From assembly GCF_000008465.1 (NCBI RefSeq), contig NC_006512.1, positions 480,001 to 512,000 of the forward strand: DNA of 32,000 nucleotides, given 5' to 3'. A program made the position numbers and the translations under genes. This document shows positions 2,389 through 29,861 of the stretch, piece after piece (the first letter of the stretch is position 1; each line of letters starts with the position of its first letter). The notes beneath the pieces are model-generated. The model searched no databases. It worked only from the letters and a program-made list of their open reading frames with translations, and was not told the origin of the DNA. This stretch comes from Idiomarina loihiensis L2TR (GTDB taxonomy: Bacteria > Pseudomonadota > Gammaproteobacteria > Enterobacterales > Alteromonadaceae).

Positions 2389-5300
2389 ATGTTAGCTCGT
2401 ATTATTGAAGCCTCCATACGTAACTCGTGGATGGTGTTGCTGCTGTTCTTAGGTCTTGCATTCTGGGCCTGGCAGTCGCTGCAGCAAACCAAACTGGACG
2501 CAATACCGGACTTATCGGAAGTTCAGGTTATCGTCAAAACCAATTACCCGGGGCAAGCGCCGGCGGTAGTGGAAGAGCAGGTGACGTACCCGCTTTCGAG
2601 CGTGATGCTGTCCGTACCTAAAGCCACCTCAGTGCGCGCTTTTTCGTTCTTTGGCGACTCGTACGTTTACGTTATTTTTGAAGACGGAACCGACCCTTAC
2701 TGGGCCCGAAGCCGGGTGAACGAGTATCTGGATCAGGCACAAAGCCAGCTTCCTGACCAAGTTCGGCCGGAGTTAGGCCCCGATGCGTCCGGTATTGGCT
2801 GGGTGTATCAATACGCATTGGTTGATGAAACCAATCAGCTCAATCTGGGTGAACTAACCCGCTTGCAGAACTGGTTTTTAAAACAGGAACTGCAAAGTGT
2901 GCAGGGGGTAGCAGAAATTGCCACAGTTGGCGGCATGGTTGAAACCTACCAGGTAGTGGTGCAGCCGGAAGCTTTACATCGTTATAACCTCACCCTGAAC
3001 CAAATTAAGCAAAGCATTCAGCAGGCCAATAACGAAGTGGGCGGTTCGGTGGTTGAAATGGGTGAAGCCGAATACATGGTACGTGGCCTGGGATATCTGA
3101 AAAGCATAGAAGACATTCGCAAAATTCCCTTGCCGCTCACATCAGAGCAGCAGGGTACGGTGCTGTTGGAAGAAGTGGCGGATATTCGCATTGGACCGCA
3201 GGTACGCCGTGGCATTACCGAGCTGAATGGCGACGGTGAAGTCGTGGGCGGTATTGTGGTTATGCGCCATGGCGAAAATGCTCTACAAACCATTGCCGCA
3301 GTAAAAGATAAACTAGAAGAGCTAAAACAGGGCCTGCCCGAGGGCGTTAAAGTGGTGCCGACCTATGACCGCTCAAACCTGATCCAGGCATCGACAGATA
3401 ACCTCACCACAAAGCTGATAGAAGAAATGTTCTTTGTTGCTGTGGTGTGCATTTTGTTTCTCTGGCATGCACGCTCGGCAGTGGTGGCCATTGTCAGTTT
3501 GCCGCTGTCGGTACTGTTCGCAGTGTGGATAATGAACATGCTGGGTATCAGCGCCAACATTATGAGTCTGGGGGGAATCGCCATTGCCATTGGCGCGCTG
3601 GTGGATGCCGCCATTGTCATGATAGAGAACACCCACAAGCACCTGCAGAATTATCAGGAGCGGCACAAAATCGTGGCTAAAGGCTCGGCGCGGCTTAAAG
3701 TTGTTAATGAAGCCTGTCGCGAAGTGGGGCCTTCGCTGTTCTTCTCGCTACTGGTCATTACCGTCAGCTTTGTTCCGGTGTTTGTGCTGCAAGGCCAGCA
3801 AGGGCGTCTGTTTGAGCCTTTAGCCTATACCAAAACTCTGGCCATGGCCGCTGCCGCAATTATTGCCGTGACACTTATTCCCGTGCTGATTGCGTTGCTG
3901 GTGCGCGGGAAAATACCCGCTGAAGAAAAGAACTGGCTGTCTCGCGGTTTAATTGCGCTTTACCGACCACTGCTGGCTTTCACACTTAAGTTCCCTAAAA
4001 CCATTATTGTACTGGCTCTTTTGATCACCGCATCTGCCTGGCACCCGTATAAGCAGCTTAATTACGAGCTGATGCCGCCGCTACATGAGGGGGACCTAAT
4101 GTACATGCCTACCACACTGCCGGGCATCAGTGTTGAAAGTGCCGGTAAGCTGTTACAGCAAACCGACAAGCTCATTGCTGCGCAGCCCGAGGTTGAGCGC
4201 GTATTCGGTAAAGTTGGTCGTGCTGACACCGCCACCGATCCTGCGCCAATGACCATGATAGAAACCAGCATTACGCTGAAGCCGGAAAGCGAATGGCGTG
4301 AAGGAATGACGGTAGATGACATTATTGCTGAGCTGGATGAGCGGGTGCAGATACCCGGCGTGACTAATGCCTGGGTACAGCCCATTCGTACCCGCATTGA
4401 AATGCTTGCCACTGGTGTTAAAACCCCGTTAGCCATTAAAGTGAGCGGTAGTGATTTTCGTGAAATAGAAAAACTGGCCACCCGTATTGAAGATACGCTT
4501 TCTGAGCAGGATGCAACGGGTTCGGTCATTGCAGAGCGTTCCGGCGGAGGTCGTTATATTGAGATAGAGCCGAAATTGCGACAAGCGGCTCGTTACGGCC
4601 TGACCCAGGCCGATATCCACGAGCATATTCAGTACGCCATTGGTGGAGCGAATATTGCGACATCGGTACAGGGCAATGAGCGTTTTCCTATTAACCTGCG
4701 TTATCCGCGAGAGCAGCGCGACCATATCGAGAAGCTGAAAACCCTGCCAGTTAAATCGGCTTCCGGGCAGTGGCTGACTCTGTCCGATGTCGCCGATATA
4801 AGGGTAACTCAGGGGCCGGCCATGCTGAAAAGCGAAGATGCCCGTTTAAGCAGCTGGGTCTTTATTGAGCCGGATAAAGGCGTCACGGTTGGTGACTATA
4901 TTACCCAGGTTAGTGGCGTTATGGATAAGTTGGAAATACCGGTAGGTTACAACTGGAGCTGGACCGGGCAATATAAAGCCATGCAACAGGTGGAAAGTGA
5001 CTTAAAAGAAATCATTCCTCTGACATTGCTGGTTATTTTGTTGTTACTGTACATGACCTTCCGTTCTCTACCGCAGGCGTTACTGGTGATAGGTACCTTA
5101 CCGCTGGCATTAACCGGTAGCTTATGGCTGATTTATTTGTTGGACTACAACCTGTCACTGGCGGTTATTGTCGGCATGATAGCTCTTGCCGGTGTCGCTG
5201 CGGAATTCGGAGTGGTTATGCTGTTGTACCTGAACAACGCATGGAAAGCCGTGGCATACGACAAAAATCAGCTAAAAGCAGCAGTAGAAGAAGGCGCGTT

Positions 5301-5490
5301 GCTGCGCGTCAGACCGAAAGCCATGACCGTGCTGACCATTATTGTCGGCCTACTACCGATAATGCTGGGCGGCGGTGTTGGTAACGAAGTCATGCAGCGC
5401 ATCGCCGCTCCTATGGTGGGTGGTATGGTACTGGCACCACTAATTTCCATGCTAGTGATCCCCGCCGTGTTTTATCTAGCGCGGAAATAA
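2389..5490 (+). CDS. cusA: Heavy-metal efflux RND permease, CusA type
   Basis: 1033 aa, collinear with E. coli CusA as I recall it. The three Cu/Ag-binding Met positions are conserved in context (MYMPT, APMTMIETS, RIEMLATG). C-terminal VRPKAMTV...AAPMVGGM block present. Confidence 0.9.
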   Translation: MLARIIEASIRNSWMVLLLFLGLAFWAWQSLQQTKLDAIPDLSEVQVIVKTNYPGQAPAVVEEQVTYPLSSVMLSVPKATSVRAFSFFGDSYVYVIFEDGTDPYWARSRVNEYLDQAQSQLPDQVRPELGPDASGIGWVYQYALVDETNQLNLGELTRLQNWFLKQELQSVQGVAEIATVGGMVETYQVVVQPEALHRYNLTLNQIKQSIQQANNEVGGSVVEMGEAEYMVRGLGYLKSIEDIRKIPLPLTSEQQGTVLLEEVADIRIGPQVRRGITELNGDGEVVGGIVVMRHGENALQTIAAVKDKLEELKQGLPEGVKVVPTYDRSNLIQASTDNLTTKLIEEMFFVAVVCILFLWHARSAVVAIVSLPLSVLFAVWIMNMLGISANIMSLGGIAIAIGALVDAAIVMIENTHKHLQNYQERHKIVAKGSARLKVVNEACREVGPSLFFSLLVITVSFVPVFVLQGQQGRLFEPLAYTKTLAMAAAAIIAVTLIPVLIALLVRGKIPAEEKNWLSRGLIALYRPLLAFTLKFPKTIIVLALLITASAWHPYKQLNYELMPPLHEGDLMYMPTTLPGISVESAGKLLQQTDKLIAAQPEVERVFGKVGRADTATDPAPMTMIETSITLKPESEWREGMTVDDIIAELDERVQIPGVTNAWVQPIRTRIEMLATGVKTPLAIKVSGSDFREIEKLATRIEDTLSEQDATGSVIAERSGGGRYIEIEPKLRQAARYGLTQADIHEHIQYAIGGANIATSVQGNERFPINLRYPREQRDHIEKLKTLPVKSASGQWLTLSDVADIRVTQGPAMLKSEDARLSSWVFIEPDKGVTVGDYITQVSGVMDKLEIPVGYNWSWTGQYKAMQQVESDLKEIIPLTLLVILLLLYMTFRSLPQALLVIGTLPLALTGSLWLIYLLDYNLSLAVIVGMIALAGVAAEFGVVMLLYLNNAWKAVAYDKNQLKAAVEEGALLRVRPKAMTVLTIIVGLLPIMLGGGVGNEVMQRIAAPMVGGMVLAPLISMLVIPAVFYLARK

Positions 5491-5496
5491 CGCGGA

Positions 5497-5523
5497 GTAG
5501 CCTGACATTTATGTCAGGTGAGG
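5497..5523 (+). repeat. REP unit (GTAG head + 18-nt hairpin), left half of an inverted REP doublet
   Basis: GTAGCCTGACATTTATGTCAGGTGAGG. Exact reverse complement lies at 5713-5738. Starts 7 nt after the cusA stop. Confidence 0.85.
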
Positions 5524-5673
5524 TGGAAGATAGCGAGCGCTGGAGGTTGCAGGAACCATTGAGGAGGACGCCCGTAAATACATCCCTGTAGGGCTTGGGC
5601 AGCGCCATCCATGGCGCCGCACACCTCCTCAATGGTTCGCCGCAACCGTCGGGCGCGCTCACTATCTGCCACC
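5522..5673 (-). repeat. Family-A structured repeat, copy A1 (nested between two REPs); strand given is the inferred core-sense strand
   Basis: Conserved core GACGCCCGTAAATACATCCCTGTAGGGCTTGGGCAGCGCCATCCATGGCGCCGCACAC. Flanked by self-complementary arms: GGTGGAAGATAGCGAGCGC...GAACCATTGAGGAGG pairs with CCTCCTCAATGGTTC...GCGCGCTCACTATCTGCCACC. Confidence 0.9.
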
Positions 5674-5712: not shown

Positions 5713-5738
5713 CTCACCTGACATAAATGTCAGGCTAC
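5713..5738 (-). repeat. REP unit, right half of inverted REP doublet
   Basis: CTCACCTGACATAAATGTCAGGCTAC is the exact reverse complement of 5497-5522. A degenerate REP-like CACCTGACGCAAACTGCACC lies at about 5675-5695. Confidence 0.85.
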
Positions 5739-11026: not shown

Positions 11027-13615
11027 GTGCTTAAAGAATATCGTCAGCACGTAGAAGAGCGCGCCGCAGAAGGCATCCCTCCGAAGCCATTAAATGCCGA
11101 GCAAGTAGCCGATTTAGTGGAATTACTGAAAAATCCCCCAGCAGGCGAGGAAGACTTCCTGGTTGAGCTGCTGGCCGAGCGTGTACCGCCGGGCGTGGAT
11201 GAAGCAGCCTATGTTAAAGCAGGCTTTTTAAGCGCCGTTGTTAAGGGCGAAATTGAAAGTCCGGTTGTGAGTAAAGAATACGCAGTGAAGCTGTTGGGCA
11301 ATATGCACGGCGGTTACAACATCGTCACTTTGGTGGAATTGCTGGACGACTCTCAGCTGGCTGAACTGGCGGCAAAAGAACTGAAAGAAACCATCTTAAT
11401 GTTCGACGCTTTCCACGACGTGGAAGAGAAAATGAAAGCCGGTAATGCGCTGGCGAAAGAAGTGGTTGAATCCTGGGCCAATGCTGAATGGTTTACCAAC
11501 AGCGACGAGCTGGCTAAGTCCATTAAAGCAACTGTCTTTAAAGTGACTGGCGAAACCAATACCGATGATCTGTCTCCGGCACCAGATGCATGGTCTCGTC
11601 CGGACATTCCTTTGCATGCTAAAGCGATGTACAAAATGCCACGCGAAGGCATTACCGATGCGGGCAAGCAGATTGAAGAATTAAAAGAAAAAGGTCACCC
11701 GGTTGCCTTCGTTGGCGACGTAGTGGGTACCGGTTCTTCACGGAAATCAGCGACCAACTCGGTATTGTGGAACATCGGCGAAGACATGCCGGGCACACCG
11801 AACAAACGTGCCGGCGGTATCTGCATCGGTTCTAAAGTTGCGCCTATTTTCTTCAATACCATGAAAGACGCAGGTGCGTTGGTGTTTGAAGCCGACGTTG
11901 AAAAAATGAACATGGGCGATGTCATCACTATCTACCCATACGAAGGCAAAATCGAGAACGAAGCCGGCGAAATTATCGCTGAATACGATTATGCGTCCCG
12001 CGTCATTCTGGATGAAGTCCGTGCCGGTGGCCGTATTAACCTGATCATTGGTCGTGGCCTGACAGAAAAAGCACGTGAATCTCTGGGCATGGGTCCATCA
12101 GACTTATTCCGTAAGCCAGAGCAACCGGCAGACAGCGGTAAAGGTTTCTCGCTGGCGCAGAAGTTGGTCGGTAAAGCTTGTGGTATGGAAGGTGTTCGTC
12201 CGGGCGCTTATTGCGAACCTAAGATGACCACTGTCGGCTCTCAGGACACTACCGGTCCTATGACTCGTGACGAACTAAAAGACCTGGCATGCCTTGGTTT
12301 TAACTCAGACTTAGTTATGCAGTCGTTCTGCCACACCGCCGCTTATCCTAAGCCCGTTGACGTTGAAACTCAGCACACCTTGCCTGACTTTATCATGAAC
12401 CGTGGCGGCGTAAGTTTGCGTCCTGGCGACGGTATCATCCACAGCTGGTTGAACCGTATGTTGTTGCCAGACACAGTTGGTACTGGTGGCGATTCGCACA
12501 CGCGTTTCCCGCTGGGCATTTCATTCCCGGCAGGCTCTGGTCTGGTCGCGTTCGCTGCAGCTACCGGTGTTATGCCGCTGGATATGCCTGAATCTGTATT
12601 GGTGCGCTTTAAAGGTGAAATGCAGCCGGGTATCACCCTGCGTGACTTAGTTCATGCCATTCCTGCATTCGCTATCAAAGAAGGTCACCTGACCGTTGAT
12701 AAGCGTGGCAAGAAGAACATTTTCTCAGGTCGTATCTTAGAAATTGAAGGTCTTGATCACTTAACCGTTGAGCAGGCATTTGAATTGTCTGATGCTTCTG
12801 CTGAGCGTTCTGCTGCCGGTTGTACCATCGATTTGTCTGAAGAGTCGGTTGCCGAGTACCTGCGTTCAAACATCACTATGCTGCGTTGGATGATCAACGA
12901 AGGCTACGGCGATGCGCGTACGTTGGAGCGTCGTGCCCGTAAGATGGAAGAATGGTTAGAGAACCCGCAGCTAACGCGTGCCGACAAAGATGCCGACTAT
13001 TCTACGGTTATCGAAATTGACCTGAACGACATTAAAGAGCCTATCGTTTGCTGCCCGAACGACCCGGACGACGCGAAGTTCCTGAGCGAAGTTTCAGGTA
13101 ATAACGTTGATGAAGTCTTCATTGGTTCGTGCATGACCAACATTGGTCACTTCCGTGCGGCGGGTAAATTGTTAGAGAAAAACTCTGACCCATTAAATAC
13201 CCGTTTGTGGATTGCACCACCAACGAAAATGGACAAAGCGCAGCTGGAAGTTGAAGGGTATTACGACATTTATGAGCGTAATGGCGTTCGTACCGAAATG
13301 CCGGGTTGTTCACTGTGTATGGGTAACCAGGCACGGGTAGAACCGGGCGCAACGGTGCTGTCTACCTCAACCCGTAACTTCCCGAACCGTTTGGGTGATG
13401 GCGCTAACGTTTACCTGACTTCTGCAGAGCTTGCCGCTGTCGGTGCAATTGTTGGTCGTCTGCCAACACCGGAAGAATACCTGGAGTACGCACAGGACAT
13501 CAACTCAATGGCTGGCGAAGTCTATAAATACCTGAACTTCGACCAGATGGATGCCTTCCGCGACGCAGAAAAAGCGGCCAAGGAAAACATCATCCCAACC
13601 ATCAACGTGGCTTAA
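11027..13615 (+). CDS. acnB: Aconitate hydratase B / 2-methylisocitrate dehydratase
   Basis: 862 aa with a GTG start. Collinear with E. coli AcnB from MLxEYRxH to the end. Conserved blocks [48 protein letters not shown] and [11 protein letters not shown]. Confidence 0.95.
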
Positions 13616-13744
13616 TGAGTGCTTAGGTTGCAAGGACTCTTTACGAGGACGCCCGCAAGTACTTCCCTGTAGGGCTTGGGCAGCGCCATCCATGGCGCTG
13701 CACACCTCGTTAAGAGTCCTCGCAACCGTTGATCGCACTCATTA
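13613..13744 (-). repeat. Family-A structured repeat, copy A2; its first bases are the acnB stop codon
   Basis: Same core as A1 (GACGCCCGCAAGTACTTCCCTGTAGGGCTTGGGCAGCGCCATCCATGGCGCTGCACAC). Different but self-complementary arms: TAATGAGTGC/GCACTCATTA and AGGACTCTTTACGAGG/CCTCGTTAAGAGTCCT. Confidence 0.9.
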
Positions 13745-13754
13745 GCAATTTATA

Positions 13755-13777
13755 AAACCGCTTCGGCGGTTTTTTTG
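13755..13777 (+). terminator. Rho-independent terminator downstream of acnB and A2
   Basis: AAAACCGC-TTCG-GCGGTTTT stem-loop followed by a T-run (13770-13776). Confidence 0.75.
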
Positions 13778-13865: not shown

Positions 13866-14027
13866 GGGGCAGGTTCTTCACTTATGAGCGTTATGAGTGT
13901 TGAGTACTTCTGTGGCGGAGTGTCGAAGGCCATGGAAGGCCTTCGTCAAGCCCTCATGGATGAGCTCGTAGCGTCTCCGTCACAGAAGTACTCAATGCTC
14001 AAGCGAAATAAGTGAAGAACCTGCCCC
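13866..14027 (+). repeat. Family-C structured repeat, copy C1 (about 162-nt long hairpin with a conserved core)
   Basis: GGGGCAGGTTCTTCACTT...AAGTGAAGAACCTGCCCC outer 18-bp stem. Inner stem of about 26 bp (3 G-T). Core GGAG-TGT-CGAAGGCC-ATGGAA-GGCCTTCG-TCAAGCCCT-CATGGATGAGCTCGTA-GCGTCTCC. Confidence 0.9.
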
Positions 14028-14050: not shown

Positions 14051-15793
14051 CTATTTCTGCTCGGCAATCCAGTCGTTGATGTGCTGCTCGAGTACTTTCA
14101 GTGGCACGCTGCCGTTTTCCAGTACCGCATCGTGGAATTCTCGAATATCGAACTTATCACCCAGCTGTTGCTCGGCTTCTGCACGCAAACGCTTAATGGT
14201 CAGTTCGCCCAACTTGTACGAAAGTGCCTGCGCAGGCCAGGTAATGTAACGGTCAATTTCGGTTTTCACATTATGCAGTGACAACGCGGTGTTATTGGCC
14301 ATAAAGTCCATTGCACGTTCACGACTCCAGCCTTTTGCATGCATACCGGTATCCACCACTAAGCGCGCCGCGCGCCACATTTCGTAGCTTAAACGACCAA
14401 AGTTGCTGTAAGGGTCTTCATAGAAACCGGCTTCCAGACCTAAGTACTCAGAGTACAGACCCCAACCTTCACCAAACGCAGAAATATAGGTTTGCTGGCG
14501 GTACTCTGGTAAATCTTCCAACTCGCCGGCAATAGCGTTTTGTAAATGATGACCCGGAACGGCTTCGTGCAATGTCAGCGCTTCCATCTGATATAACGGA
14601 CGGCGATCCAGTGCGTAGGTATTGACCCAGTAGAAACCGGCGCGGTCGTCGCGATTCGTTCCAGAATAGCGACCTGTGGTGTATTTCGGTGCTATTTCTT
14701 CAGGAACCGGGGCAATGCCGTATGGCTTCCGTGGTAGGGTCTTGAACAGCTTGGGTAATTCGCCATCCATCTTTTTTGCTATCCAGGCAGCGTAATGCAG
14801 CAATTCTTCTGCGGTTTCCGGATAGAACTGGTCGTCGGTACGTAAGAACTCGACGAACTCATCAAAGCTGCCATCAAACCCGCTTGCTTCAATAGCTTCC
14901 AGCATTTCACCACGAATACGCGCCACTTCCTGTAGACCAATTTGGTGAATTTCATCCGCAGTTAAATCTAACGTAGTGTAATGTTTAATACGGTTTTGAT
15001 AAAAAGCGTCGCCATTCGGCAGTTCGCTGGCACCAATGGTTTCACGTGCATTTGGAAGATACTCGGTGACCATAAAGTTGAAGTAGTCGTCATACGCCGG
15101 CATGACTTGCTGGTCAATGGCTGTTAAGGCATCTTCTTTTAGTTGCTTCCATTGCTCGTCATTAATAAAGCCCGGTTGTTCGGAAAACGGCGAGAAATAA
15201 ACGCTTTGATCAGCGTCCTGTACAATGTAGGCCAGTATACTCTCTTCAAAGCCCGCCATTGCGGCAGCTGGCTGGGTATAACCTTCTTCTATCGCCTTAC
15301 GCAACCAATGCGTTTGTTGTTCCATGTAACGAGGAATGGAACGCAGTTTCGCAATGTAATTCTGATAATCTTCAGCCGAAGAGAACGAGGTGTACGATGG
15401 CATAAAAGCAAGAGAACTATGGAAACTACCCTCTGCTGTCAATGGCATGTAGTGTGCTTTAAAACGATACTCATCTACTTTATTTTTTAACGTATAATGG
15501 ATCATCGCATGATTAATTTGGTCATCCCGGCTAAGCGCGTTAAGGTTAACGGCGTTAAGCTGTTCGAGCCACTTTGAGCGTTGTTGATAGCGTTTTTCTA
15601 ACGCCTCCGGTGACATATCGGTCAGCTCAGTATCGCTGGACTTATTCAGTTCTTCCCAGATAGTGTCAGCCAGCTGATGAAACTCGGCAGCAGGGCTCAG
15701 TTGCTGTGTGCTGCTACGCTGGGTTTGGTTATCAGCTGTGGTGGTGCAGGCAGTAACGCCCAGCAAACCAAAAATAAGTATCAGATTGCGCAT
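14051..15793 (-). CDS. DUF885-family lipoprotein (putative metallopeptidase-like)
   Basis: Long ORF containing a HEAVPGHH motif, which I associate with DUF885. I prefer the start at 15793 (MRNLILIFGLLGVTAC lipobox, AAGGA SD 7 nt upstream) over the ORF-track start at 15829. Confidence 0.75.
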   Translation of the reverse strand: MRNLILIFGLLGVTACTTTADNQTQRSSTQQLSPAAEFHQLADTIWEELNKSSDTELTDMSPEALEKRYQQRSKWLEQLNAVNLNALSRDDQINHAMIHYTLKNKVDEYRFKAHYMPLTAEGSFHSSLAFMPSYTSFSSAEDYQNYIAKLRSIPRYMEQQTHWLRKAIEEGYTQPAAAMAGFEESILAYIVQDADQSVYFSPFSEQPGFINDEQWKQLKEDALTAIDQQVMPAYDDYFNFMVTEYLPNARETIGASELPNGDAFYQNRIKHYTTLDLTADEIHQIGLQEVARIRGEMLEAIEASGFDGSFDEFVEFLRTDDQFYPETAEELLHYAAWIAKKMDGELPKLFKTLPRKPYGIAPVPEEIAPKYTTGRYSGTNRDDRAGFYWVNTYALDRRPLYQMEALTLHEAVPGHHLQNAIAGELEDLPEYRQQTYISAFGEGWGLYSEYLGLEAGFYEDPYSNFGRLSYEMWRAARLVVDTGMHAKGWSRERAMDFMANNTALSLHNVKTEIDRYITWPAQALSYKLGELTIKRLRAEAEQQLGDKFDIREFHDAVLENGSVPLKVLEQHINDWIAEQK

Positions 15794-15909
15794 GATTTTT
15801 CCTTGCGGTGTCATAACGAATACAGGCATTCTATAATGCCTCTTACGCTAATTAATGTAAAAGCGAATAGAACGAACCCACAAAAATAACAGTTAAATGG
15901 GAGAATAGG

Positions 15910-17511: not shown

Positions 17512-18444
17512 ATGAAAGTAGCCGTATTAGGTGCGGCCGGTGGTATCGGCCAGGCATTGTCATTACTTCTGAAAACCCAATTACCAGCAGGTTCAGAATT
17601 ATCGTTGTATGACGTTGCGCCAGTAGTTCCAGGTGTGGCGGTTGACTTAAGTCATATCCCTACCGACGTAAAAGTAACAGGCTTCGGTAAAGACGACTTA
17701 GCATCAGCATTAGTTGGCAGCGACATCGTATTGATTCCTGCCGGCGTACCACGTAAGCCGGGTATGGATCGCTCTGACCTGTTCAACATGAACGCCGGCA
17801 TCGTTAAAAACCTAGTGCAAGGCGTTGCAGACAACTGCCCTAACGCCTGTGTTGGCATCATTACTAACCCAGTAAACACCACGGTTCCAATCGCTGCCGA
17901 AGTCCTGAAAAAAGCAGGCTGCTACGATAAGCGTAAACTGTTCGGTGTTACTACGCTGGACGTTATCCGTTCAGAAGCCTTTGTTGGTGAGTTGCGTGGT
18001 CTGAACCCGGAAAACGTTAATGTACCAGTTATCGGTGGGCATAGCGGCACAACCATTTTGCCATTGCTGTCTCAGGTTGAAGGCGTTGAGTTTACAGAGC
18101 AAGAAATCAAAGACTTAACTCACCGTATCCAGAATGCCGGTACTGAAGTTGTCGAAGCCAAAGCTGGCGGCGGTTCAGCAACCCTTTCTATGGGTCAGGC
18201 AGCAGCACGCTTTGCCTTGTCACTGCTGAAAGGCCTGCAAGGTCAGGACACTATCGAGTGCACCTACGTAGAAGGCCCGGGCGACAATGCTAAGTTCTTC
18301 GCGCAGCCAGTACGCTTAGGCAAAAACGGCGCCGAAGAAATCCTGTCTTACGGCAAGCTAAGTGCATTCGAACAAAAATGCATGGACGAAATGCTAGACG
18401 GCCTGAAAGGCGACATCCAAACTGGCATCGACTTCGCCAGCTAA
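17512..18444 (+). CDS. mdh: Malate dehydrogenase
   Basis: 310 aa. [16 protein letters not shown] Rossmann motif, [24 protein letters not shown]. Collinear with E. coli Mdh. Confidence 0.95.
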
Positions 18445-18650
18445 GCTTTCAGCAATCCGCTCTTGAAAATATTGGGGCGGGCCAGCATTGGCTGGCCATT
18501 GCAGGTTATCTTCCGAAAGACGCCTGCAAGTACGTCCCTGTAAGGCTTGGGCAGCGCCATCCTTGGCGCTGCACACTTTCTCCAGATAACCCACAATGGC
18601 GTATCGCCAATACTGACCACCCCCAATACTTCCACGCTATTTGCTGAAAG
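18445..18650 (-). repeat. Family-A structured repeat, copy A3 (divergent, longer arms); begins at the base after the mdh stop
   Basis: Core GACGCCTGCAAGTACGTCCCTGTAAGGCTTGGGCAGCGCCATCCTTGGCGCTGCACAC. Arms are unrelated in sequence to A1/A2/A4 but self-complementary: CTTTCAGCAA/TTGCTGAAAG, ATTGGGG/CCCCAAT, GGTTATCT/AGATAACC. Confidence 0.85.
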
Positions 18651-18654
18651 TTAT

Positions 18655-20046: not shown

Positions 20047-20100
20047 GTTCACGTCAGGAGTTATCTTTGGACTTTCCACCTGATGTGAATATCAGGCTAC
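20046..20100. repeat. Right fragment of the split REP plus its intact inverted partner REP (REP doublet)
   Basis: CGTTCACGTCAGG (20046-20058) ... CACCTGATGTGAATATCAGGCTAC (20077-20100), which is the reverse complement of GTAGCCTGATATTCACATCAGGTG. Confidence 0.8.
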
Positions 20101-20111
20101 GAAAATGGTTG

Positions 20112-20275
20112 GAGGGCAGGTTGCTCACTTGTGAGCGTTACGAGTGTTGATAGCTTCTGTAGCGGAGTGTCGAAGGCCAGGGATGGCCTTCGTCAAGCCC
20201 TCATGGATGAGCTCGTAGCGTCTCCGCTACAGAAGCTATCAATGCTCAAGCGAAACAAGTGAGCAATCTGCCCTC
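20112..20275 (+). repeat. Family-C structured repeat, copy C2
   Basis: Same architecture as C1, with compensatory arm changes: GGTTGCTCACTT/AAGTGAGCAATC and GATAGCTTCTGTAGCGGAG/CTCCGCTACAGAAGCTATC. Hairpin loop is AGGGAT. Confidence 0.9.
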
Positions 20276-20276
20276 T

Positions 20277-20337
20277 CCCAAGCCCTACAGGGAAGTACTT
20301 GGGGGCGTCCTCCGAAACAGAACCCGCTCCCCCAAGG
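20277..20337 (+). repeat. Partial family-A copy (core 3' half + one arm), opposite orientation to A1-A5, fused to the end of C2
   Basis: CCCAAGCCCTACAGGGAAGTACTTGGGGGCGTCCTCC... equals the reverse complement of the A core from GGGCTTGGG leftwards. Ends 7 nt before the ispB stop. Confidence 0.8.
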
Positions 20338-20343
20338 CATTTC

Positions 20344-21318
20344 TTACGCCACCCGGTCGACTGCAAGGTGGGTTAGGGTGAGCAGGGCTTGTTTGTAGTC
20401 GGAGTCGGGGAGTTCACTTAGGGATTCACGCGCTTGTTCGGCGGCTTCTAAGGCTTTGTCGCGGGTGTACTGCAAGGCTCCTGTCCGCTCCATAGCGGTT
20501 AGCACGGTTTGTAAGTGCTCACGTCCGTCGCCTTGCTCAATGGCTTCGCGAATCAGCTTTTGCTCTATTTCGTTGCCGTGCCACATGGCGTATAGCAAGG
20601 GTAGTGTAGGCTTACCTTCCGCTAGGTCATCACCGGCGTTCTTACCCATAGATTCGCTATCCGCGGTGTAATCCATTAAATCATCTACCAGCTGAAAAGC
20701 AGTGCCCAGGTAACGACCGTAGTCGGCCAGTTGCTGGGTTACTTTTTCGTCTTGTGCGGTTAAGACACCGGCTAACTCTGTAGCTGCTTCAAACAACTTG
20801 GCGGTTTTGCCGTAAATAACATTAAAGTAGCTGGCTTCTGAGGTATCTGGGTCGTTACAGTTCATTAACTGCAGTACTTCACCTTCAGAAATGATGTTGG
20901 TGGCATCCGCTAAAATCCGCAGAATCCGCAGTGAGTCTAAATCGACCATTAACTGAAAAGCGCGGGTATAAAGGAAGTCACCAACGAGTACGCTGGCTTC
21001 ATTACCGAACACTGCGTTGGCGGTTTTGCGTCCGCGGCGCAGTTCCGATTCATCAACGACATCATCGTGAAGCAGAGTCGCGGTATGAATAAACTCGATA
21101 ATCGTAGCAAGTTTGCGGTGATCGTTACCTTCATAACCCAGAGCCCGACAAGCTAATATGGCGAGCAGCGGCCGTAAGCGTTTACCGCCACTGTTGACAA
21201 TATAAAGGCCTAATTGGTTAATTAAGGCAACATCCGATTGAAGTTGTTCACCTATTAATGCATTAACACCAAGCATGTCGTCTTTGGCTAATGCGTTAAT
21301 GGACTGCATATCCATCAT
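20344..21318 (-). CDS. ispB: Octaprenyl-diphosphate synthase
   Basis: 324 aa. Collinear with E. coli IspB. First and second Asp-rich motifs present (LLHDDVVDES, DDLMDY). Divergent from rplU, as in E. coli. Confidence 0.92.
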   Translation of the reverse strand: MMDMQSINALAKDDMLGVNALIGEQLQSDVALINQLGLYIVNSGGKRLRPLLAILACRALGYEGNDHRKLATIIEFIHTATLLHDDVVDESELRRGRKTANAVFGNEASVLVGDFLYTRAFQLMVDLDSLRILRILADATNIISEGEVLQLMNCNDPDTSEASYFNVIYGKTAKLFEAATELAGVLTAQDEKVTQQLADYGRYLGTAFQLVDDLMDYTADSESMGKNAGDDLAEGKPTLPLLYAMWHGNEIEQKLIREAIEQGDGREHLQTVLTAMERTGALQYTRDKALEAAEQARESLSELPDSDYKQALLTLTHLAVDRVA

Positions 21319-21834: not shown

Positions 21835-22092
21835 ATGGCACATAAAAAGGCTGGTGGTTCTACTAAAAACGGTCGCGACTCAGAGAGTAAACGTCTCGGT
21901 GTTAAGCGCTTCGGTGGTGAGTCTGTGTTAGCAGGCAACATCCTGGTTCGTCAACGTGGTACTAAGTTCCACGCTGGTGCGAACGTTGGTATTGGTAAAG
22001 ACCACACATTGTTTGCAACCTCAGAAGGCAAAGTGTCTTTTGATGTGAAGGGCAGCAAAAACCGTAAATTTGTGAGCGTTATTACTGACTAA
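21835..22092 (+). CDS. rpmA: 50S ribosomal protein L27
   Basis: [24 protein letters not shown]..., the canonical L27. AAGGAG SD. Confidence 0.97.
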
Positions 22093-22126
22093 TAATGTGA
22101 ACATAAACTGAAAAGTTTCGGTTCTG

Positions 22127-22155
22127 AAAGCCCTGCCTTACGGCGGGGCTTTTTC
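22127..22155 (+). terminator. Rho-independent terminator after rpmA
   Basis: GCCCTGCC-TTAC-GGCGGGGC stem (one G-T pair) followed by TTTTT (22150-22154). Confidence 0.75.
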
Positions 22156-22199
22156 ATATGTGCTAGAATTTTGCACAGTATTCTATAAGTGATAAGTAG

Positions 22200-23415
<1,216 letters not shown>

Positions 23416-26016: not shown

Positions 26017-26751
26017 ATGATAAACGTAGATGCACTGACAAAAACATTCAAAAATGTGCAAGCGCTGGACTCTCTTTCATTTCAGGCAAAAGATGGCGAA
26101 ATTACCGGGCTTCTTGGGCCTAACGGAGCCGGGAAAACGACTTGTCTGCGTATTATTTACGGGTTGTTGCAGGCAGATACCGGCAAAGCAGAGATTGAAG
26201 GTGTTGATGCCAACCAGAACCCGATTGATGCACGCCGTAACCTCGGTATATTCCCTGATAAATTCGGTTTATACGAACGCTTGACCGTACGCGAGCAAGT
26301 AGCTTATTTCGCCGGGCTGCACGGGCTAAAAGGCACGGAGCAAAAGCAGGCGGTTGAGAAGGTGATAGAGAAACTGGATATTAAAGAACTTGCAGACCGT
26401 CGTACTGCCGGGTTTTCACAAGGTCAGCGGATGAAAGTAGCGTTGGCTCAGGCTTTAGTACACAGCCCGAAACACTTGATTCTGGATGAACCCAGCCGCG
26501 GTCTGGACGTGATGAGTACCCGAATTTTAAGAGATGTGTTGCGCGAACAACGCGCTCAAGGCACCTGTATCTTGTTTTCCAGTCACGTTATGCAGGAAGT
26601 TGCCGCTCTATGTGACCGAGTGGTGGTGATGGCAAAAGGCAAAGTGGCAGCTGAAGGAACACCGCAGGAGCTGTGCGATATGACCGGCGAGCAACAGCTG
26701 GAAGACGCCTTCGTTAAAATTATCGGTACCGACGAGGGGATAGCAGCCTAA
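26017..26751 (+). CDS. ABC transporter ATP-binding protein (NatA-like, ABC-2 type)
   Basis: Walker A GPNGAGKTT, signature FSQGQRMKV, Walker B LILDEPSRGLD. Starts 3 nt after the hydrolase stop. Confidence 0.9.
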   Translation: MINVDALTKTFKNVQALDSLSFQAKDGEITGLLGPNGAGKTTCLRIIYGLLQADTGKAEIEGVDANQNPIDARRNLGIFPDKFGLYERLTVREQVAYFAGLHGLKGTEQKQAVEKVIEKLDIKELADRRTAGFSQGQRMKVALAQALVHSPKHLILDEPSRGLDVMSTRILRDVLREQRAQGTCILFSSHVMQEVAALCDRVVVMAKGKVAAEGTPQELCDMTGEQQLEDAFVKIIGTDEGIAA

Positions 26752-27896
26752 TGAGTGCATTAACTTCCGTATGGAAAAAAGAGTTCCGGGACGCTATTCG
26801 TGATAAACGTTCTGTTTTAGCGGCAATGTCCTATGCGTTTTTTGGCCCTTTATTAATGGCCGTAGCCTTCTTTTTCTTAATAACCCAACTGACCGACCCA
26901 GCAGACGTTGAAATTACCATTGAAGGCAAAGAAAATGCCCCTCAACTCGTTGAATTTTTGAACGAACGTGGTGTTGTTGCTAAAGAAGGGGAGTGGGCGA
27001 AAACCGAAACGCCAATAATATTGACCTTACCGCAAAACTGGCAGGAAAGTGTGAGTAAAGCCGAACCGGTGGAGGTAACATTACGCGCCGACTGGTCCGC
27101 ACAAAAACAGCAGACCGAAATTAAGCGTGTAGAGCAGGCCGTTCAGGCATACTCCAGTCAAATAGCGGCTTACCGTCTGACTTTACGGGGTGTGGATCCG
27201 CGTGTCGTGCAACCAATACAGTTACAAAAGCAAGACTTAGCAACCCGGGGCTCAAAAGCGGCCTTGATTATGGGCAGTGTGCTGGTATTTATTATCTTGT
27301 CTGTATTCTGGTCTGGTATGAATGTGGCTATTGATATCAGTGCTGGTGAGCGTGAACGTAACTCGCTGGAATTTTTGCTGAGTCAGCCGTTAAGCACCTG
27401 GGACATTGTTACCGGTAAAGCACTGACCGCAACGACCTTTTCATTGTTCGGGGCAATACTGTCACTGGTACTCATACCCATTATATTTGCCTACGTTCCA
27501 TTACACGAAATTGGTATGAACGTGAACTTTAGTGTGGGTATGATGCTACTAATGTTTGTTTTGCTGGTACCGCTAGCTTTGTTCGCGACCGCCCTGCAAT
27601 TGTTTGTGTCCTTTCGCGCGAAAAACTTCAAAGAAGCACAAACCTACATCAGCTTCTTATTGATCATTCCCATGGCAGCGTCATTCGGTGTCGAATTTGC
27701 ACGGCTTAAAAATCCAATTCTCTACTATCTCCCGCTAACCGGTCAGCATCAGGCTTTTCTGTCACTGATACGCGGTGAGAACGTGAATGTCATGGGAACG
27801 GTCATCAGCGCAATTGCCACCCTGGCAGCCGCTCTGCTGCTCATGAAATACATAGCCCGAATGCTCAAAAGCGAAAAAATCGTCTTCGGCCTGTAG
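26751..27896 (+). CDS. ABC-2 type transporter permease (NatB-like)
   Basis: 381 aa. N-terminal TM, a large extracytoplasmic loop, then 5 C-terminal TMs. Start overlaps the ATPase stop (TAATG). Confidence 0.8.
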   Translation: MSALTSVWKKEFRDAIRDKRSVLAAMSYAFFGPLLMAVAFFFLITQLTDPADVEITIEGKENAPQLVEFLNERGVVAKEGEWAKTETPIILTLPQNWQESVSKAEPVEVTLRADWSAQKQQTEIKRVEQAVQAYSSQIAAYRLTLRGVDPRVVQPIQLQKQDLATRGSKAALIMGSVLVFIILSVFWSGMNVAIDISAGERERNSLEFLLSQPLSTWDIVTGKALTATTFSLFGAILSLVLIPIIFAYVPLHEIGMNVNFSVGMMLLMFVLLVPLALFATALQLFVSFRAKNFKEAQTYISFLLIIPMAASFGVEFARLKNPILYYLPLTGQHQAFLSLIRGENVNVMGTVISAIATLAAALLLMKYIARMLKSEKIVFGL

Positions 27897-27903
27897 CGGG
27901 GCT

Positions 27904-28040
27904 GAATAGCGAGCGCTGAGGTTACAAGGGCCATTGTGGAGGACGCCCGTAAATACATCCCTGTAGGGCTTGGGCAGCGCCATCCATGGCGCTGCACACC
28001 TCCACAATAGCCCTGTGTAACCGTCGGCGCGCTCACTATC
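27904..28040 (-). repeat. Family-A structured repeat, copy A4
   Basis: Core identical to A1 except at 1 position. Arms GAATAGCGAGCGC...GGGCCATTGTGGAGG / CCTCCACAATAGCCC...GCGCGCTCACTATC. Starts 8 nt after the permease stop. Confidence 0.9.
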
Positions 28041-28089: not shown

Positions 28090-28250
28090 GGGCAGGCTGT
28101 TCACTTGTGAGCGTTACGAGTGTTGAAAGCCTCTGTGGCGGAGTGTCGAAGGCCATGGATGGCCTTCGTCAAGCTCTCATGGATGAGCTCGTCGCGTCTC
28201 CGTCATAGAGGCTTTCAATGCTCAAGCGAAGCAAGTGAGCAGCCTGCCCC
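28090..28250 (+). repeat. Family-C structured repeat, copy C3
   Basis: GGGCAGGCTGTTCACTT...AAGTGAGCAGCCTGCCCC. Inner arms GAAAGCCTCTGTGGCGGAG/CTCCGTCATAGAGGCTTTC. Ends 9 nt before the stop of the minus-strand oxidoreductase gene. Confidence 0.9.
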
Positions 28251-29579: not shown

Positions 29580-29608
29580 AAACACCCACCTATAAAACGG
29601 AGAGGGAA

Positions 29609-29744
29609 GACAGCGAGCGCTGAGGTTACAAGGGCTATTGTGGAGGACGCCCGTGAATACATCCGTGTAGGGCTTGGGCAGCGCCATCCATGGCGCTGCA
29701 CACCTCCACAATAGCCCTATGTAACCGTTGGCGCGCTCACTATC
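29609..29744 (-). repeat. Family-A structured repeat, copy A5 (in the leader of the oxidoreductase gene)
   Basis: Core GACGCCCGTGAATACATCCGTGTAGGGCTTGGGCAGCGCCATCCATGGCGCTGCACAC. Arms GACAGCGAGCGC...GGGCTATTGTGGAGG / CCTCCACAATAGCCC...GCGCGCTCACTATC. Confidence 0.9.
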
Positions 29745-29749
29745 TCCCG

Positions 29750-29825
29750 CCTCATGGATGAGCTCGTCGCGTCTCCGCCACAGAGGCCTTCAATGCTCAA
29801 GCGAAACAAGTGAGCAGTCTGCCCC
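29750..29825 (+). repeat. Family-C half copy C4 (3' part of core + right arms only)
   Basis: CTCATGGATGAGCTCGTCGCGTCTCCGCCACAGAGGCCTTCAATGCTCAAGCGAAACAAGTGAGCAGTCTGCCCC aligns with the right half of C1-C3. Confidence 0.85.
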
Positions 29826-29856
29826 AAGCCCATGCAACCTCAGCGCTCGCTATTCG
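29822..29856 (+). repeat. Internally deleted partial family-A copy, opposite orientation to A1-A5, fused to C4
   Basis: CCCCAAGCCC-ATGCAACCTCAGCGCTCGCTATTC. This is the CAAGCCC core motif joined directly to the reverse complement of the A outer arm (GAATAGCGAGCGCTGAGGTTGCAT). Confidence 0.75.
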
Positions 29857-29861
29857 GAGCC

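What the first reader, a model, noticed from the sequence alone, without database searches (positions are those of the whole stretch)
27904..28040. Family A: 135-205-nt repeat with an invariant core and arms that change sequence but keep pairing
Seen: there are five full copies, at 5522-5673, 13613-13744, 18445-18650, 27904-28040 and 29609-29744. They share a 57-nt core: GACGCC(C/T)G(T/C)(A/G)A(A/G)TAC(A/T/G)TCC(C/G)TGTA(G/A)GGCTTGGGCAGCGCCATCC(A/T)TGGCGC(T/C)GCACAC.

The flanking arms differ between copies yet remain self-complementary within each copy.
- Inner arm A1: GAACCATTGAGGAGG/CCTCCTCAATGGTTC
- Inner arm A2: AGGACTCTTTACGAGG/CCTCGTTAAGAGTCCT
- Inner arm A4: GGGCCATTGTGGAGG/CCTCCACAATAGCCC
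- Inner arm A3: GGTTATCT/AGATAACC
- Outer arm A1/A4/A5: ATAGCGAGCGC/GCGCGCTCACTAT
- Outer arm A2: TAATGAGTGC/GCACTCATTA
- Outer arm A3: CTTTCAGCAA/TTGCTGAAAG

This is the reverse of a typical MITE, which has conserved termini and a variable middle. It is the covariation pattern expected of a selected secondary structure, in RNA or single-stranded DNA. I do not recognise the core as any named repeat or Rfam family, but I cannot search.
Basis: seen in the sequence. Interest (0 to 1): 0.8.

Follow-up and report, generated by a model that had tools for sequence, protein, structure and literature searches.

The report
Idiomarina relative of YPAL hairpin repeats
This is a real, repeated 135-210-bp DNA element that sits just after the stop codons of ordinary genes in Idiomarina and folds into a long hairpin with a conserved two-loop tip; it is a new branch of an already described family (YPAL/RU-2 repeats of Yersinia, Rfam Ysr224 and TwoAYGGAY) whose function is still unsettled.

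Summary
There are five full copies, all on the + strand, plus a sixth truncated copy at 20278-20343(-). They share a 58-nt core, and each folds into one long hairpin (z -8 to -10).

Across 65 distinct copies from about 12 Idiomarina genomes, all 22 arm pairs covary. Compensation also occurs in place at orthologous sites.

The element is not a new kind. Its forked tip is homologous to the core of Yersinia YPAL/RU-2 repeats. That core is Rfam Ysr224 on the same strand and has the architecture of Rfam TwoAYGGAY on the opposite strand. A Marinobacter plasmid carries the same tip on unrelated arms. Family A scores below both Rfam thresholds.

Like YPAL, it lies 0-30 nt after a stop codon, in sense orientation, at about 17 of 18 sites. 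At acnB it lies upstream of the terminator.

Best reading: a YPAL-type insertion element kept as a structured 3'-UTR module.

One puzzle remains. Mismatch spectra, folding energies and CsrA-like GGA loops all favour the antisense strand.

Novelty: new member of a known kind. Interest is moderate.

The parts
5522..5673 (+). Family A copy A1 (core 5567-5624). It lies 32 nt after the stop of an AcrB-type RND pump gene (2389-5490) and is bracketed by an inverted pair of REP-like palindromes.
13612..13745 (+). Family A copy A2 (core 13648-13705). The acnB stop codon (13613-13615) lies inside the outer arm. An intrinsic terminator follows at 13754-13776.
18444..18652 (+). Family A copy A3, the long-armed subfamily (core 18519-18576). 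It starts directly after the stop of malate dehydrogenase (17512-18444).
27904..28040 (+). Family A copy A4, the copy in the finding (core 27942-27999). It starts 8 nt after the stop of an ABC-2 permease gene (26751-27896).
29608..29745 (+). Family A copy A5 (core 29646-29703). It is the only copy antisense to its flanking genes, and it lies in a rearranged cluster.
20278..20343 (-). Truncated sixth Family A copy: left arm plus core up to GGGCTTGG. It lies directly after the stop of a polyprenyl synthetase gene (20344-21318, - strand). Orthologous copies in other species are full length.
29833..29855 (-). Family A left-arm fragment (GAATAGCGAGCGCTGAGGTTGCA) after the stop of a GNAT gene. Three other genomes (BLK54, I. 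abyssalis, HP20-50) have a complete sense copy at this site.
13866..14027 (-). Sister family A' copy. It has the same forked tip, but both tip hairpin stems are changed with compensation. It lies sense after the stop of a DUF885 gene (14051-15829, - strand). Other species carry a Family A copy at this site.
20112..20275 (-). Sister family A' copy, abutting the truncated Family A copy.
28090..28250 (-). Sister family A' copy. It lies sense after the stop of an FAD oxidoreductase gene (stop at 28260, - strand) and is tail-to-tail with A4.
29750..29825 (-). Left half of an A' copy, ending after its small tip hairpin. It is joined to the end of A5 by a deletion at a CTCAT/CTTCAT microhomology.

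Best explanation
**What it is.** Family A is the Idiomarina branch of a superfamily of miniature, hairpin-forming insertion elements. The superfamily includes YPAL/RU-2 of Yersinia (catalogued in Rfam as the multi-copy 'sRNA' Ysr224) and, read on the other strand, the TwoAYGGAY motif.

**How it is arranged.** The element was inserted between the stop codon and the terminator of unrelated housekeeping genes. It lies almost always in one orientation, so it is transcribed as part of the upstream gene's 3' UTR. This is inferred from position only.

**How it folds.** It forms a stem of about 40-60 bp capped by a three-way junction with two small hairpins. The loops of those hairpins keep an invariant UCC (GGA on the other strand).

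**What it most likely does.** The long stem only has to pair, and it stays paired through compensatory change. It most likely acts as a 3'-end structure that protects or tunes the upstream mRNA, as reported for YPAL. The tip is the most constrained part. It is most likely the recognition site for a trans-acting factor, either an RNA-binding protein or the unknown enzyme that mobilised the element.

**Shown:** existence, folding, covariation, position and orientation, homology of the tip, and conservation in place.

**Inferred:** transcription, the effect on mRNA, and the identity of the factor.
For: **Copies and folding.** Five exact-core copies, against 0.01 expected. Hairpin z-scores are -8.3 to -10.

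**Family size.** 71 copies in about 12 Idiomarina genomes at about 18 sites, most of them shared between species.

**Covariation.** All 22 arm pairs covary. In-place compensation is seen in 20 of 23 both-varying pairs, against 0-3 in controls.

**Position.** The upstream gene is on the same strand in about 60 of 65 copies, with 0-30 nt from stop to element.
- At acnB the element lies between the stop and a + strand terminator. Outgroup acnB 3' ends have stop plus terminator and no element.
- Host genes are unrelated in function.

**Homology of the tip.**
- Direct alignment with the published Y. pestis RU-2 sequence.
- BLAST hits, restricted to the core, in Yersinia plasmids and in a Yersinia phage record whose match lies next to host glyS.
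- The Family A tip model scores YPAL at 54 bits (E 2e-12) and a Marinobacter element at 67 bits.
- Rfam Ysr224 hits 4 of 5 copies on the + strand. TwoAYGGAY hits three copies (A2, A4, A5) on the - strand across the two scans.
- The Y. similis YPAL also sits in sense orientation after a gene and duplicates a terminator.

**Conservation at orthologous sites.** Core 2.4% divergence (4.6% and 1.1% outside the 19-mer used for retrieval), arms 9-12%, adjacent coding DNA 14.7%, flanking intergenic DNA 41%.

**Literature.** YPAL is co-transcribed with upstream genes and may affect their stability. Multi-copy Ysr224 transcripts are detected in Y. ruckeri.
Against: - There are no expression data for Idiomarina. 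The mRNA-stabilising effect is extrapolated from Yersinia. The primary paper (De Gregorio 2006) was not held.
- Three sequence-level signals favour the strand antisense to the host gene:
  - Derived stem mismatches are mostly A.C on the sense strand, which is G.U on the antisense strand. Counts are 18 against 8 column-states in A and 23 against 8 in A'.
  - The antisense RNA folds more stably in 53 of 65 A copies and 28 of 28 A' copies.
  - Only the antisense loops match a known protein-binding consensus, CsrA (my knowledge).
- Several copies are truncated, deleted or chimeric. Not every copy is maintained.
- Core conservation is partly inflated, because loci were retrieved through an exact core 19-mer.
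Confidence: 0.55

Rival explanations
1. The functional molecule is the antisense transcript, i.e. the TwoAYGGAY orientation. Its tip presents two hairpin loops of the form CA-N-GGA-N-G about 24 nt apart. That is a bidentate site for one CsrA/RsmA dimer. The elements would then be dispersed CsrA-binding modules, acting as decoys or as regulators of convergent or antisense transcripts.
For: - Antisense loops read CAUGGAUG and UACAGGGAUGUA. The second matches the CsrA SELEX consensus RUACARGGAUGU (my knowledge).
- GGA is nearly invariant, while the bases on either side of it vary.
- The same GGA-loop pattern holds in A', YPAL, Marinobacter and Psychromonas TwoAYGGAY.
- TwoAYGGAY was proposed as a CsrA binder and shares Rfam clan CL00106 with rsmX.
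- The mismatch spectrum and MFE both favour the antisense strand.
- 47 of 65 copies lie between convergent genes.
Against: - The tight link is to the stop codon of the same-strand gene, not to the convergent gene.
- At acnB a hairpin terminator lies between the convergent gene and A2. By my own reading it could also stop minus-strand transcripts. The scan itself called it on the + strand only.
- No promoter-like site was found near the copies scanned.
- The RNA detected in Yersinia (Ysr224) is the sense strand.
- CsrA binding and antisense expression are untested. No csrA gene lies in the held sequence.
Confidence: 0.2
2. The element is purely selfish palindromic DNA with no host function. Arm complementarity would be kept by DNA-level processes: templated correction of quasi-palindromes during replication, or regeneration at each transposition. 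The conserved tip would merely be what the mobilising enzyme recognises.
For: - Stems are almost purely Watson-Crick, with very few G.U on the mRNA strand (15 of 2598 cells).
- Many copies are broken at or near the tip hairpins, have their centres deleted, are inverted or are chimeric.
- Host genes have no common theme.
- YPAL shows target duplications and filled/empty site polymorphism.
- One copy shows a clustered four-base change in the core that looks like gene conversion (L041).
Against: - Copies are old and fixed at orthologous sites across species. Even so, the core diverges several-fold more slowly than adjacent coding DNA.
- Site-specific core variants, such as the A3 type, stay distinct and unchanged across five genomes (0.7% divergence). 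This argues against simple homogenisation.
- The strong orientation bias is not expected for neutral palindromes, whose centre could flip by recombination between the arms.
Confidence: 0.17
3. The element is a single-stranded-DNA recombination or transposition site. A folded strand would be recognised by structure, as in integron attC sites or the hairpin ends of IS200/IS605 and REP/RAYT systems.
For: - Structure is conserved while arm sequence is free.
- There is strand asymmetry in the mismatches.
- The core contains GTAG next to a G+C-rich hairpin, which is REP-like.
- Breakpoints of truncated copies fall at or near the tip hairpins.
Against: - Orientation follows the adjacent gene, not the replication strand. 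The truncated copy and all A' copies are on the - strand, sense to - strand genes.
- There is no integrase, cassette array, RAYT or IS200-type gene in view.
- The favoured strand is the transcription template strand, which is not the strand normally exposed as single-stranded DNA (inference from the positive GC skew of the + strand).
- Sites are stable across species.
Confidence: 0.05

Closest known systems
YPAL / RU-2 (Yersinia palindromic sequences; De Gregorio et al. 2006, Delihas 2007)
   Same: - It is an intergenic hairpin element of about 130-170 bp.
- It lies close downstream of stop codons and is co-transcribed.
- The central forked tip is about 85% identical: GACGCC(C)GTAAATACATCC.TGTAGG(G)CT.G..C.GCGCCATCC.TGGCGC.
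- It sits in sense orientation after the upstream gene.
   Different: - The arms share no detectable similarity; BLAST aligns only query positions 39-89.
- The host is in a different order (Alteromonadales, not Enterobacterales).
- No target-site duplication could be shown for Family A. The Y. similis YPAL is flanked by a 19-bp duplicated terminator.
Rfam RF02770 Ysr224 (Yersinia sRNA 224)
   Same: It is on the same strand. It hits 4 of 5 window copies and aligns along the whole tip. It is multi-copy in Yersinia genomes.
   Different: Scores are 21.8-28 bits against a gathering score of 70, so Family A is not a member by Rfam's criterion. The parts of the model outside the tip do not match.
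Rfam RF01731 TwoAYGGAY (Weinberg et al. 2010)
   Same: Read on the antisense strand, the architecture is identical. There is a large variable P1 stem, a hairpin with an AUGGAU loop, a short linker, and a second stem enclosing a UACAGGGAYGUA hairpin.
   Different: - Scores are 28.5-31.7 bits against a gathering score of 43.
- The second loop is AGGGAU rather than AYGGAY.
- In the held part of the file, the gamma-proteobacterial members of the published alignment are from Psychromonas, not Idiomarina or Yersinia.
- The published strand is opposite to the strand that lies in the adjacent gene's mRNA.
ERIC/IRU and Correia/NEMIS elements
   Same: They are miniature intergenic repeats transcribed into mRNAs as long hairpins that alter mRNA stability or processing.
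   Different: - There is no sequence similarity.
- Those families have conserved terminal inverted repeats and TA duplications, and they occur in both orientations.
- Family A has its conserved part in the middle and a near-fixed orientation.
CsrB/RsmZ-type CsrA-sequestering RNAs
   Same: They carry GGA motifs in hairpin loops at a spacing suitable for a CsrA dimer. For Family A this holds on the antisense strand only.
   Different: - Those are dedicated sRNA genes with their own promoter and terminator and many GGA sites.
- Here there are two sites per element and no promoter.
- The GGA strand is antisense to the host gene.
Integron attC sites
   Same: They are recognised as a folded structure. 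Sequence is free and pairing is kept.
   Different: - attC sites have conserved ends (R and L boxes) and a variable centre.
- They lie in cassette arrays next to intI.
- None of this is seen here.

Membership tests
YPAL/RU-2 | Intergenic repeat of about 130-170 bp that folds into one long stable hairpin | tested here: met
   (z -8.3 to -10); unit about 135-210 bp
YPAL/RU-2 | Sequence homology to the YPAL consensus | tested here: inconclusive
   The central ~55 nt are homologous (model score 54 bits, E 2e-12). The arms, which make up about two thirds of the element, show no similarity.
YPAL/RU-2 | Insertion close downstream of stop codons, within the transcription unit of the upstream gene | tested here: met
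   0-30 nt from the stop, same strand, at about 17 of 18 sites; terminator downstream of A2
YPAL/RU-2 | Target-site duplications of 3-26 bp; targets at or next to dyad symmetries or terminators | tested here: inconclusive
   No clean empty site was found. Outgroup acnB 3' ends lack the element but are too diverged to define a duplication. A1 lies between inverted REPs. The duplication is seen for a Yersinia copy.
YPAL/RU-2 | Raises the level of the upstream transcript | not testable with these tools
   This needs RNA measurements. The primary paper was not held.
Rfam Ysr224 (RF02770) | Score at or above the gathering threshold (70 bits) | tested here: not met
   21.8-28 bits
Rfam TwoAYGGAY (RF01731) | Score at or above the gathering threshold (43 bits) | tested here: not met
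   28.5-31.7 bits on the - strand
Rfam TwoAYGGAY (RF01731) | Two terminal loops containing AYGGAY, closed by a P1 stem that is often very large | tested here: inconclusive
   Loop 1 is AUGGAU or AAGGAU. Loop 2 is AGGGAU (R, not Y), as in some Psychromonas members. The large P1 stem is present.
CsrA-binding RNA | GGA in hairpin loops on the transcribed strand, and binding by CsrA | not testable with these tools
   The motif is present only on the strand antisense to the host gene. Expression and binding are unknown.
Classical MITE | Conserved terminal inverted repeats, a fixed-length target duplication, and a related transposase-encoding IS | tested here: not met
   The termini are the least conserved part. 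No duplication was found, and no related IS is in view.
Integron attC | R/L boxes at the ends, a cassette array, and an adjacent intI | tested here: not met
   Copies lie singly after unrelated housekeeping genes.

The most novel reading that the evidence does not exclude
YPAL repeats, the 'sRNA' Ysr224 and the TwoAYGGAY motif may be one superfamily of mobile modules, spread across several gamma-proteobacterial orders and possibly gut Clostridia. Their selected structure may be on the strand antisense to the host gene. That strand carries a ready-made two-site CsrA/RsmA-binding tip on a stem that is free to change sequence. In that reading, a mobile element distributes binding sites for a global post-transcriptional regulator next to gene ends. 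The published sense-strand annotation (Ysr224, '3'-UTR stabiliser') would then miss the active strand.
Probability: 0.2. Interest if true: 0.7.

Novelty: new member of a known kind. Interest (0 to 1): 0.42.

Why it matters
**Unifying three descriptions.** Three separate lines appear to describe the same object:
- the YPAL/RU-2 repeat literature;
- an Rfam 'sRNA' (Ysr224);
- an orphan Rfam motif on the opposite strand (TwoAYGGAY).

No paper in the searchable library links them.

**What the Idiomarina copies add.** They give a clean natural experiment. The same insertions have been inherited by several species. This shows three things:
- the stem co-evolves in place;
- the tip is more conserved than neighbouring coding DNA;
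- the orientation rule is nearly absolute.

**If the strand paradox is real.** It would decide whether these abundant elements are 3'-UTR stabilisers, CsrA-related regulators, or both.

**If it is not.** The finding is an ordinary new lineage of a known repeat. Its practical value would be for annotation, because these copies currently escape the Rfam thresholds.

Tried and rejected
1. **Protein coding.** One frame of the core is open. I inspected the variable core positions by eye on the alignments; no script was run. They fall on all three codon positions (first 6, second 4, third 3). The arms covary as pairs. Coding was rejected.

2. **Own promoter or own terminator.** Consensus scans found no promoter near A1, A2, A4 or A5. 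The only terminator found is the one downstream of A2. No T-run follows the elements.

3. **Replication-strand bias as the reason all five copies are on the + strand.** Rejected. The truncated copy and all sister-family copies are on the - strand. Each is sense to its own gene.

   - Mostly rejected. Most copies share recognisable arm sequence (GAGCGCTGAGGTTRCA.. / ..YAACCGTYGGGCGCGCTC).
   - The A3-type arms recur at a second site.
   - It is not excluded for a minimal copy in I. aminovorans, whose arms look like a terminator hairpin.

5. **Target-site duplication.** No clean empty site was found among the held loci. Outgroup acnB 3' ends are too diverged to define one.

6. **csrA in the held sequence.** None was found, which is uninformative.

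7. **The YPAL primary paper.** It is not held. I relied on reviews and on the published RU-2 sequence.

8. **A gene name corrected.** I first took the 862-aa gene upstream of A2 for ClpB. It is AcnB.

Full report

Yes.
- The 19-mer GGCTTGGGCAGCGCCATCC occurs exactly five times, at 5592, 13673, 18544, 27967 and 29671. All five are on the + strand, where 0.01 matches are expected by chance.
- Each copy folds into a single long hairpin with a forked tip. MFE is -74 to -97 kcal/mol and z is -8.3 to -10.0 against dinucleotide-preserving shuffles.
- A structure-and-sequence model of the tip later found a sixth, truncated copy at 20278-20343 on the - strand.
- In several copies pairing continues outward (GGTGAGGTGG.AGATAG...). 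The unit is therefore nearer 165 bp than 135 bp.

**2. Where else is it?**

- An exact scan of one genome per species returned 79 loci.
- About 50 come from Idiomarina: abyssalis, zobellii, aminovorans, ramblicola, piscisalsi, rhizosphaerae, strain HP20-50, and several metagenome-assembled genomes.
- The rest match only 19-21 nt and are chance hits.
- This gave 71 copies, 65 of them distinct. They lie at roughly 18 chromosomal sites, most of them shared by several species. The insertions are therefore old and inherited.
- The window is an Idiomarina-type chromosome. Its host genes are ordinary and unrelated: an AcrB-type pump, AcnB, malate dehydrogenase, an ABC-2 permease, polyprenyl synthetase and others.

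**3. Do the arms really covary?**

Yes.
- The test used 65 distinct copies and the RNAalifold structure, which has 40 pairs.
- 95.7% of cells are paired, against 84.3% in shuffles (0 of 500 shuffles reached this).
- 24 pairs have changes on both sides, against 15.8 in shuffles (0 of 500) and 8-11 when partners are slid by 1-3 columns.
- All 22 arm pairs show changes on both sides.
- The two tip hairpins are almost invariant, with one compensated pair each.
- Compensation also happens in place. Within groups of orthologous copies, 23 arm pairs vary on both sides and 20 of these keep a standard pair. Slid controls give 0-3.
- Single-sided mismatches are also common, with 60 states. Decay and repair of the stem both occur.

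**4. Position and orientation.**

- That gene's stop codon lies 0-30 nt from, or inside, the basal stem.
- The downstream gene is convergent in 47 copies.
- At acnB the order is stop codon, element, intrinsic terminator.
- Outgroup acnB genes (Pseudidiomarina and others) have a stop codon, a short spacer and a terminator, with no element. The element is therefore an insertion into a 3' UTR.
- The one antisense copy in the window (A5) lies in a rearranged cluster. Other species have a complete sense copy after the neighbouring GNAT gene. The window retains only its left-arm fragment there.

**5. What is it related to?**

*Rfam.*
- Rfam at its gathering thresholds finds nothing.
- With permissive thresholds the copies consistently hit two families.
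  - Ysr224 is hit on the + strand at 21.8-28 bits, against a gathering score of 70.
  - TwoAYGGAY is hit on the - strand at 28.5-31.7 bits, against a gathering score of 43.

*Ysr224 and YPAL.*
- Ysr224 is one of the most multi-copy Rfam 'sRNAs'. In Y. ruckeri its copies are 80-91% identical and have different expression profiles.
- The published 168-nt RU-2/YPAL sequence of Y. pestis, reverse-complemented, contains GACGCCGTAAATACATCCATGTAGGCTCGAGCCGCGCCATCCTTGGCGCGGACGC.
- Family A has GACGCCCGTAAATACATCCCTGTAGGGCTTGGGCAGCGCCATCCATGGCGCTGCACAC. So Ysr224 is YPAL, and the Family A tip is homologous to it.

*Independent checks.*
- BLAST of copy A4 against plasmids and phages hits only with its core. 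The hits are Yersinia plasmids, a Yersinia Mu-like phage record in which the match lies next to host glyS, and a Marinobacter adhaerens plasmid.
- A covariance model built only from Idiomarina tips gave these scores:

| Target | Bits | E-value |
|---|---|---|
| Marinobacter element | 67 | 5e-16 |
| Yersinia YPAL copies | 54 | 2e-12 |

- The Marinobacter copy has perfect 28-bp arms unrelated to any other arms.
- The Y. similis YPAL is flanked by a duplicated 19-bp terminator hairpin and lies in sense orientation after a gene.

*TwoAYGGAY.*
- Weinberg et al. describe TwoAYGGAY as two AYGGAY loops closed by a P1 stem that is 'often very large' but sometimes very small.
- The Psychromonas members have the same architecture as the Family A antisense strand.
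- Yersinia and Idiomarina are not in the held part of that alignment.
- No paper in the library mentions YPAL together with TwoAYGGAY or Ysr224.

*Conclusion.* The pattern of a conserved centre and free arms is a property of a whole superfamily. Family A is a new lineage of it.

**6. Is it under constraint?**

Divergence within orthologous groups:

| Region | Divergence |
|---|---|
| Core, whole | 2.4% |
| Core positions 1-25 | 4.6% |
| Core positions 45-58 | 1.1% |
| Arms | 9-12% |
| Last ~110 nt of the upstream gene | 14.7% |
| Downstream intergenic DNA | 41% |

- Core positions 1-25 and 45-58 lie outside the 19-mer used for retrieval. They are given separately because exact-match retrieval biases the estimate downward.
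- Site-specific core variants stay distinct. The A3-type core is the same in five genomes and differs from the other copies in those genomes. Homogenisation between copies is therefore not the main cause.
- One copy (acnB site, I. aminovorans) shows a clustered four-base switch that looks like gene conversion.

**7. Which strand matters?**

This is unresolved, and it is the most interesting point.

*Evidence for the sense strand.*
- Position after the stop codon.
- The terminator downstream of A2.
- The sense orientation of Ysr224.
- On this strand the loops read AUCCAU and AUCCCU.

*Evidence for the antisense strand.*
- Derived stem mismatches are mostly A.C on the sense strand, which is G.U on the antisense strand.
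  - Column-states: 18 against 8 in Family A, and 23 against 8 in the sister family.
  - Within orthologous groups: 28 against 8.
  - Sense-strand substitutions: G>A 24 against C>T 13, and T>C 16 against A>G 3.
  - This is opposite to what the positive GC skew of this strand would predict (inference).
- The antisense RNA folds more stably in 53 of 65 Family A copies and 28 of 28 sister-family copies.
- The antisense loops read CA-N-GGA-N-G twice. One of them is UACAGGGAUGUA, which matches the CsrA SELEX consensus RUACARGGAUGU (my knowledge). TwoAYGGAY has been proposed as a CsrA binder.

*Caveats.*
- The copies are related, so these counts are not independent events.
- No promoter-like site was found that could make an antisense RNA.

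**8. How it most likely works.**

*Best supported (about 0.55).*
- It is a YPAL-type insertion element.
- It is carried in the 3' UTR of the upstream gene as a long hairpin that protects or tunes that mRNA.
- The stem only needs to pair.
- The tip is a recognition module for an unidentified factor.

*Rivals.*

| Rival | Confidence |
|---|---|
| Antisense TwoAYGGAY/CsrA module | about 0.2 |
| Selfish palindrome kept paired by DNA-level templated correction, with no host function | about 0.17 |
| Single-stranded-DNA recombination site | about 0.05 |

- The selfish-palindrome reading is favoured by the near absence of G.U pairs and by the many broken copies.
- It is disfavoured by conservation in place and by the orientation rule.

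**9. Surroundings.**

- The window also holds a sister family, A', of about 165-190 bp. Copies lie at 13866-14027, 20112-20275 and 28090-28250, with a partial copy at 29750-29825. All are on the - strand.
- A' has the same tip architecture. Both tip stems are changed with compensation and the loops are kept.
- The three complete A' copies each lie in sense orientation after the stop codon of a - strand gene. The partial copy follows the Family A left-arm fragment downstream of the GNAT gene's stop.
- A and A' often sit tail-to-tail between convergent genes.
- The same site can hold A in one species and A' in another.
- The clusters show a block inversion, centre deletions, half elements broken at or near the tip hairpins, and REP insertions.

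**10. Verdict.**

- The interpretation of a selected structure is partly supported.
- The element is not a new kind. It is a new lineage of the YPAL/Ysr224/TwoAYGGAY superfamily that current Rfam thresholds miss.
- Interest is moderate. The value lies in unifying three separate descriptions and in exposing the strand paradox, which is directly testable.

Noticed in passing
window 13866-14027(-), 20112-20275(-), 28090-28250(-), partial 29750-29825(-): A second repeat family (A', about 165-190 bp) has the same forked-tip architecture as Family A. Its core is ACGCTACGAGCTCATCCATGAGGGCTTGACGAAGGCCATCCATGGCCTTCGACAC. Both tip stems differ from Family A with compensation, and the loops are kept. The three complete copies each lie sense after the stop of a - strand gene. 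The Family A tip model scores them at 51-58 bits.
   Followed up: partly
window 5497-5522(+), 5713-5738 (inverted), 13791, 18655, 20090-20100(-), 23360/23405 pair: REP-like palindromes tagged with GTAG (GTAGCCTGAYR...YRTCAGGTGAG). There are 10 matches against 1.6 expected. They often occur in inverted pairs and often lie next to Family A or A' copies. One pair brackets A1. No RAYT-type gene was looked for.
   Followed up: partly
Family A alignment A2 and the A' copies (window and loci): Strand paradox. The elements lie in the sense orientation of the upstream gene. Yet stem mismatches are mainly A.C on that strand (G.U on the other), and the antisense RNA is predicted to be more stable in 53 of 65 A copies and 28 of 28 A' copies.
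   Followed up: partly
L053 500-1020(-) versus L026 60-640: At one site the block [Family A - spacer - A'] is inverted between two genomes. Either A or A' therefore ends up sense-adjacent to the same stop codon.
   Followed up: no
window 29740-29860; L066 3950-4440; L011 5060-5680: The A5 cluster is rearranged in several ways. The window has a deletion at a CTCAT/CTTCAT microhomology that removes half of an A' copy. I. aminovorans has a precise deletion of the centre of the A5 palindrome. I. ramblicola has a chimera of an A' left arm, two REPs and the right half of a Family A copy.
   Followed up: partly
L041 4661-4790(-): A minimal element in I. aminovorans. It has an A3-like core with only 14-17-bp arms (GCCCCGCTATCAGG.../...CCTGATAGCGGGGC) followed by a T-rich run, so it looks like a terminator hairpin with the core in its loop. 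The window keeps only the left arm of this hairpin at the same site.
   Followed up: no
L041 3670-3743: The acnB-site copy of I. aminovorans differs from its seven orthologues by four clustered core changes (CGCAAGTACTTCC to CGTAAATACATCC). These match other copies, which suggests gene conversion between copies.
   Followed up: no
L085 (Marinobacter adhaerens plasmid pHP-187, NC_017507.1 about 91285-91339): The same forked tip sits on perfect 28-bp arms unrelated to any Idiomarina or Yersinia arms. This is a further genus, and the copy is plasmid-borne.
   Followed up: partly
L086 (Yersinia similis plasmid NZ_CP007231.1 about 26050-26260): A YPAL copy is flanked on both sides by the same terminator hairpin (ACCGCCATAAAGGCGGTTT). 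The left copy has lost most of its T-run, so transcription would read through into the element.
   Followed up: no
window 22084-22172(+): Weak sub-threshold Rfam hits (BSnc120 at 27 bits, Phe leader at 25 bits) upstream of the gene at 22209-23363. This may be a leader or attenuator.
   Followed up: no
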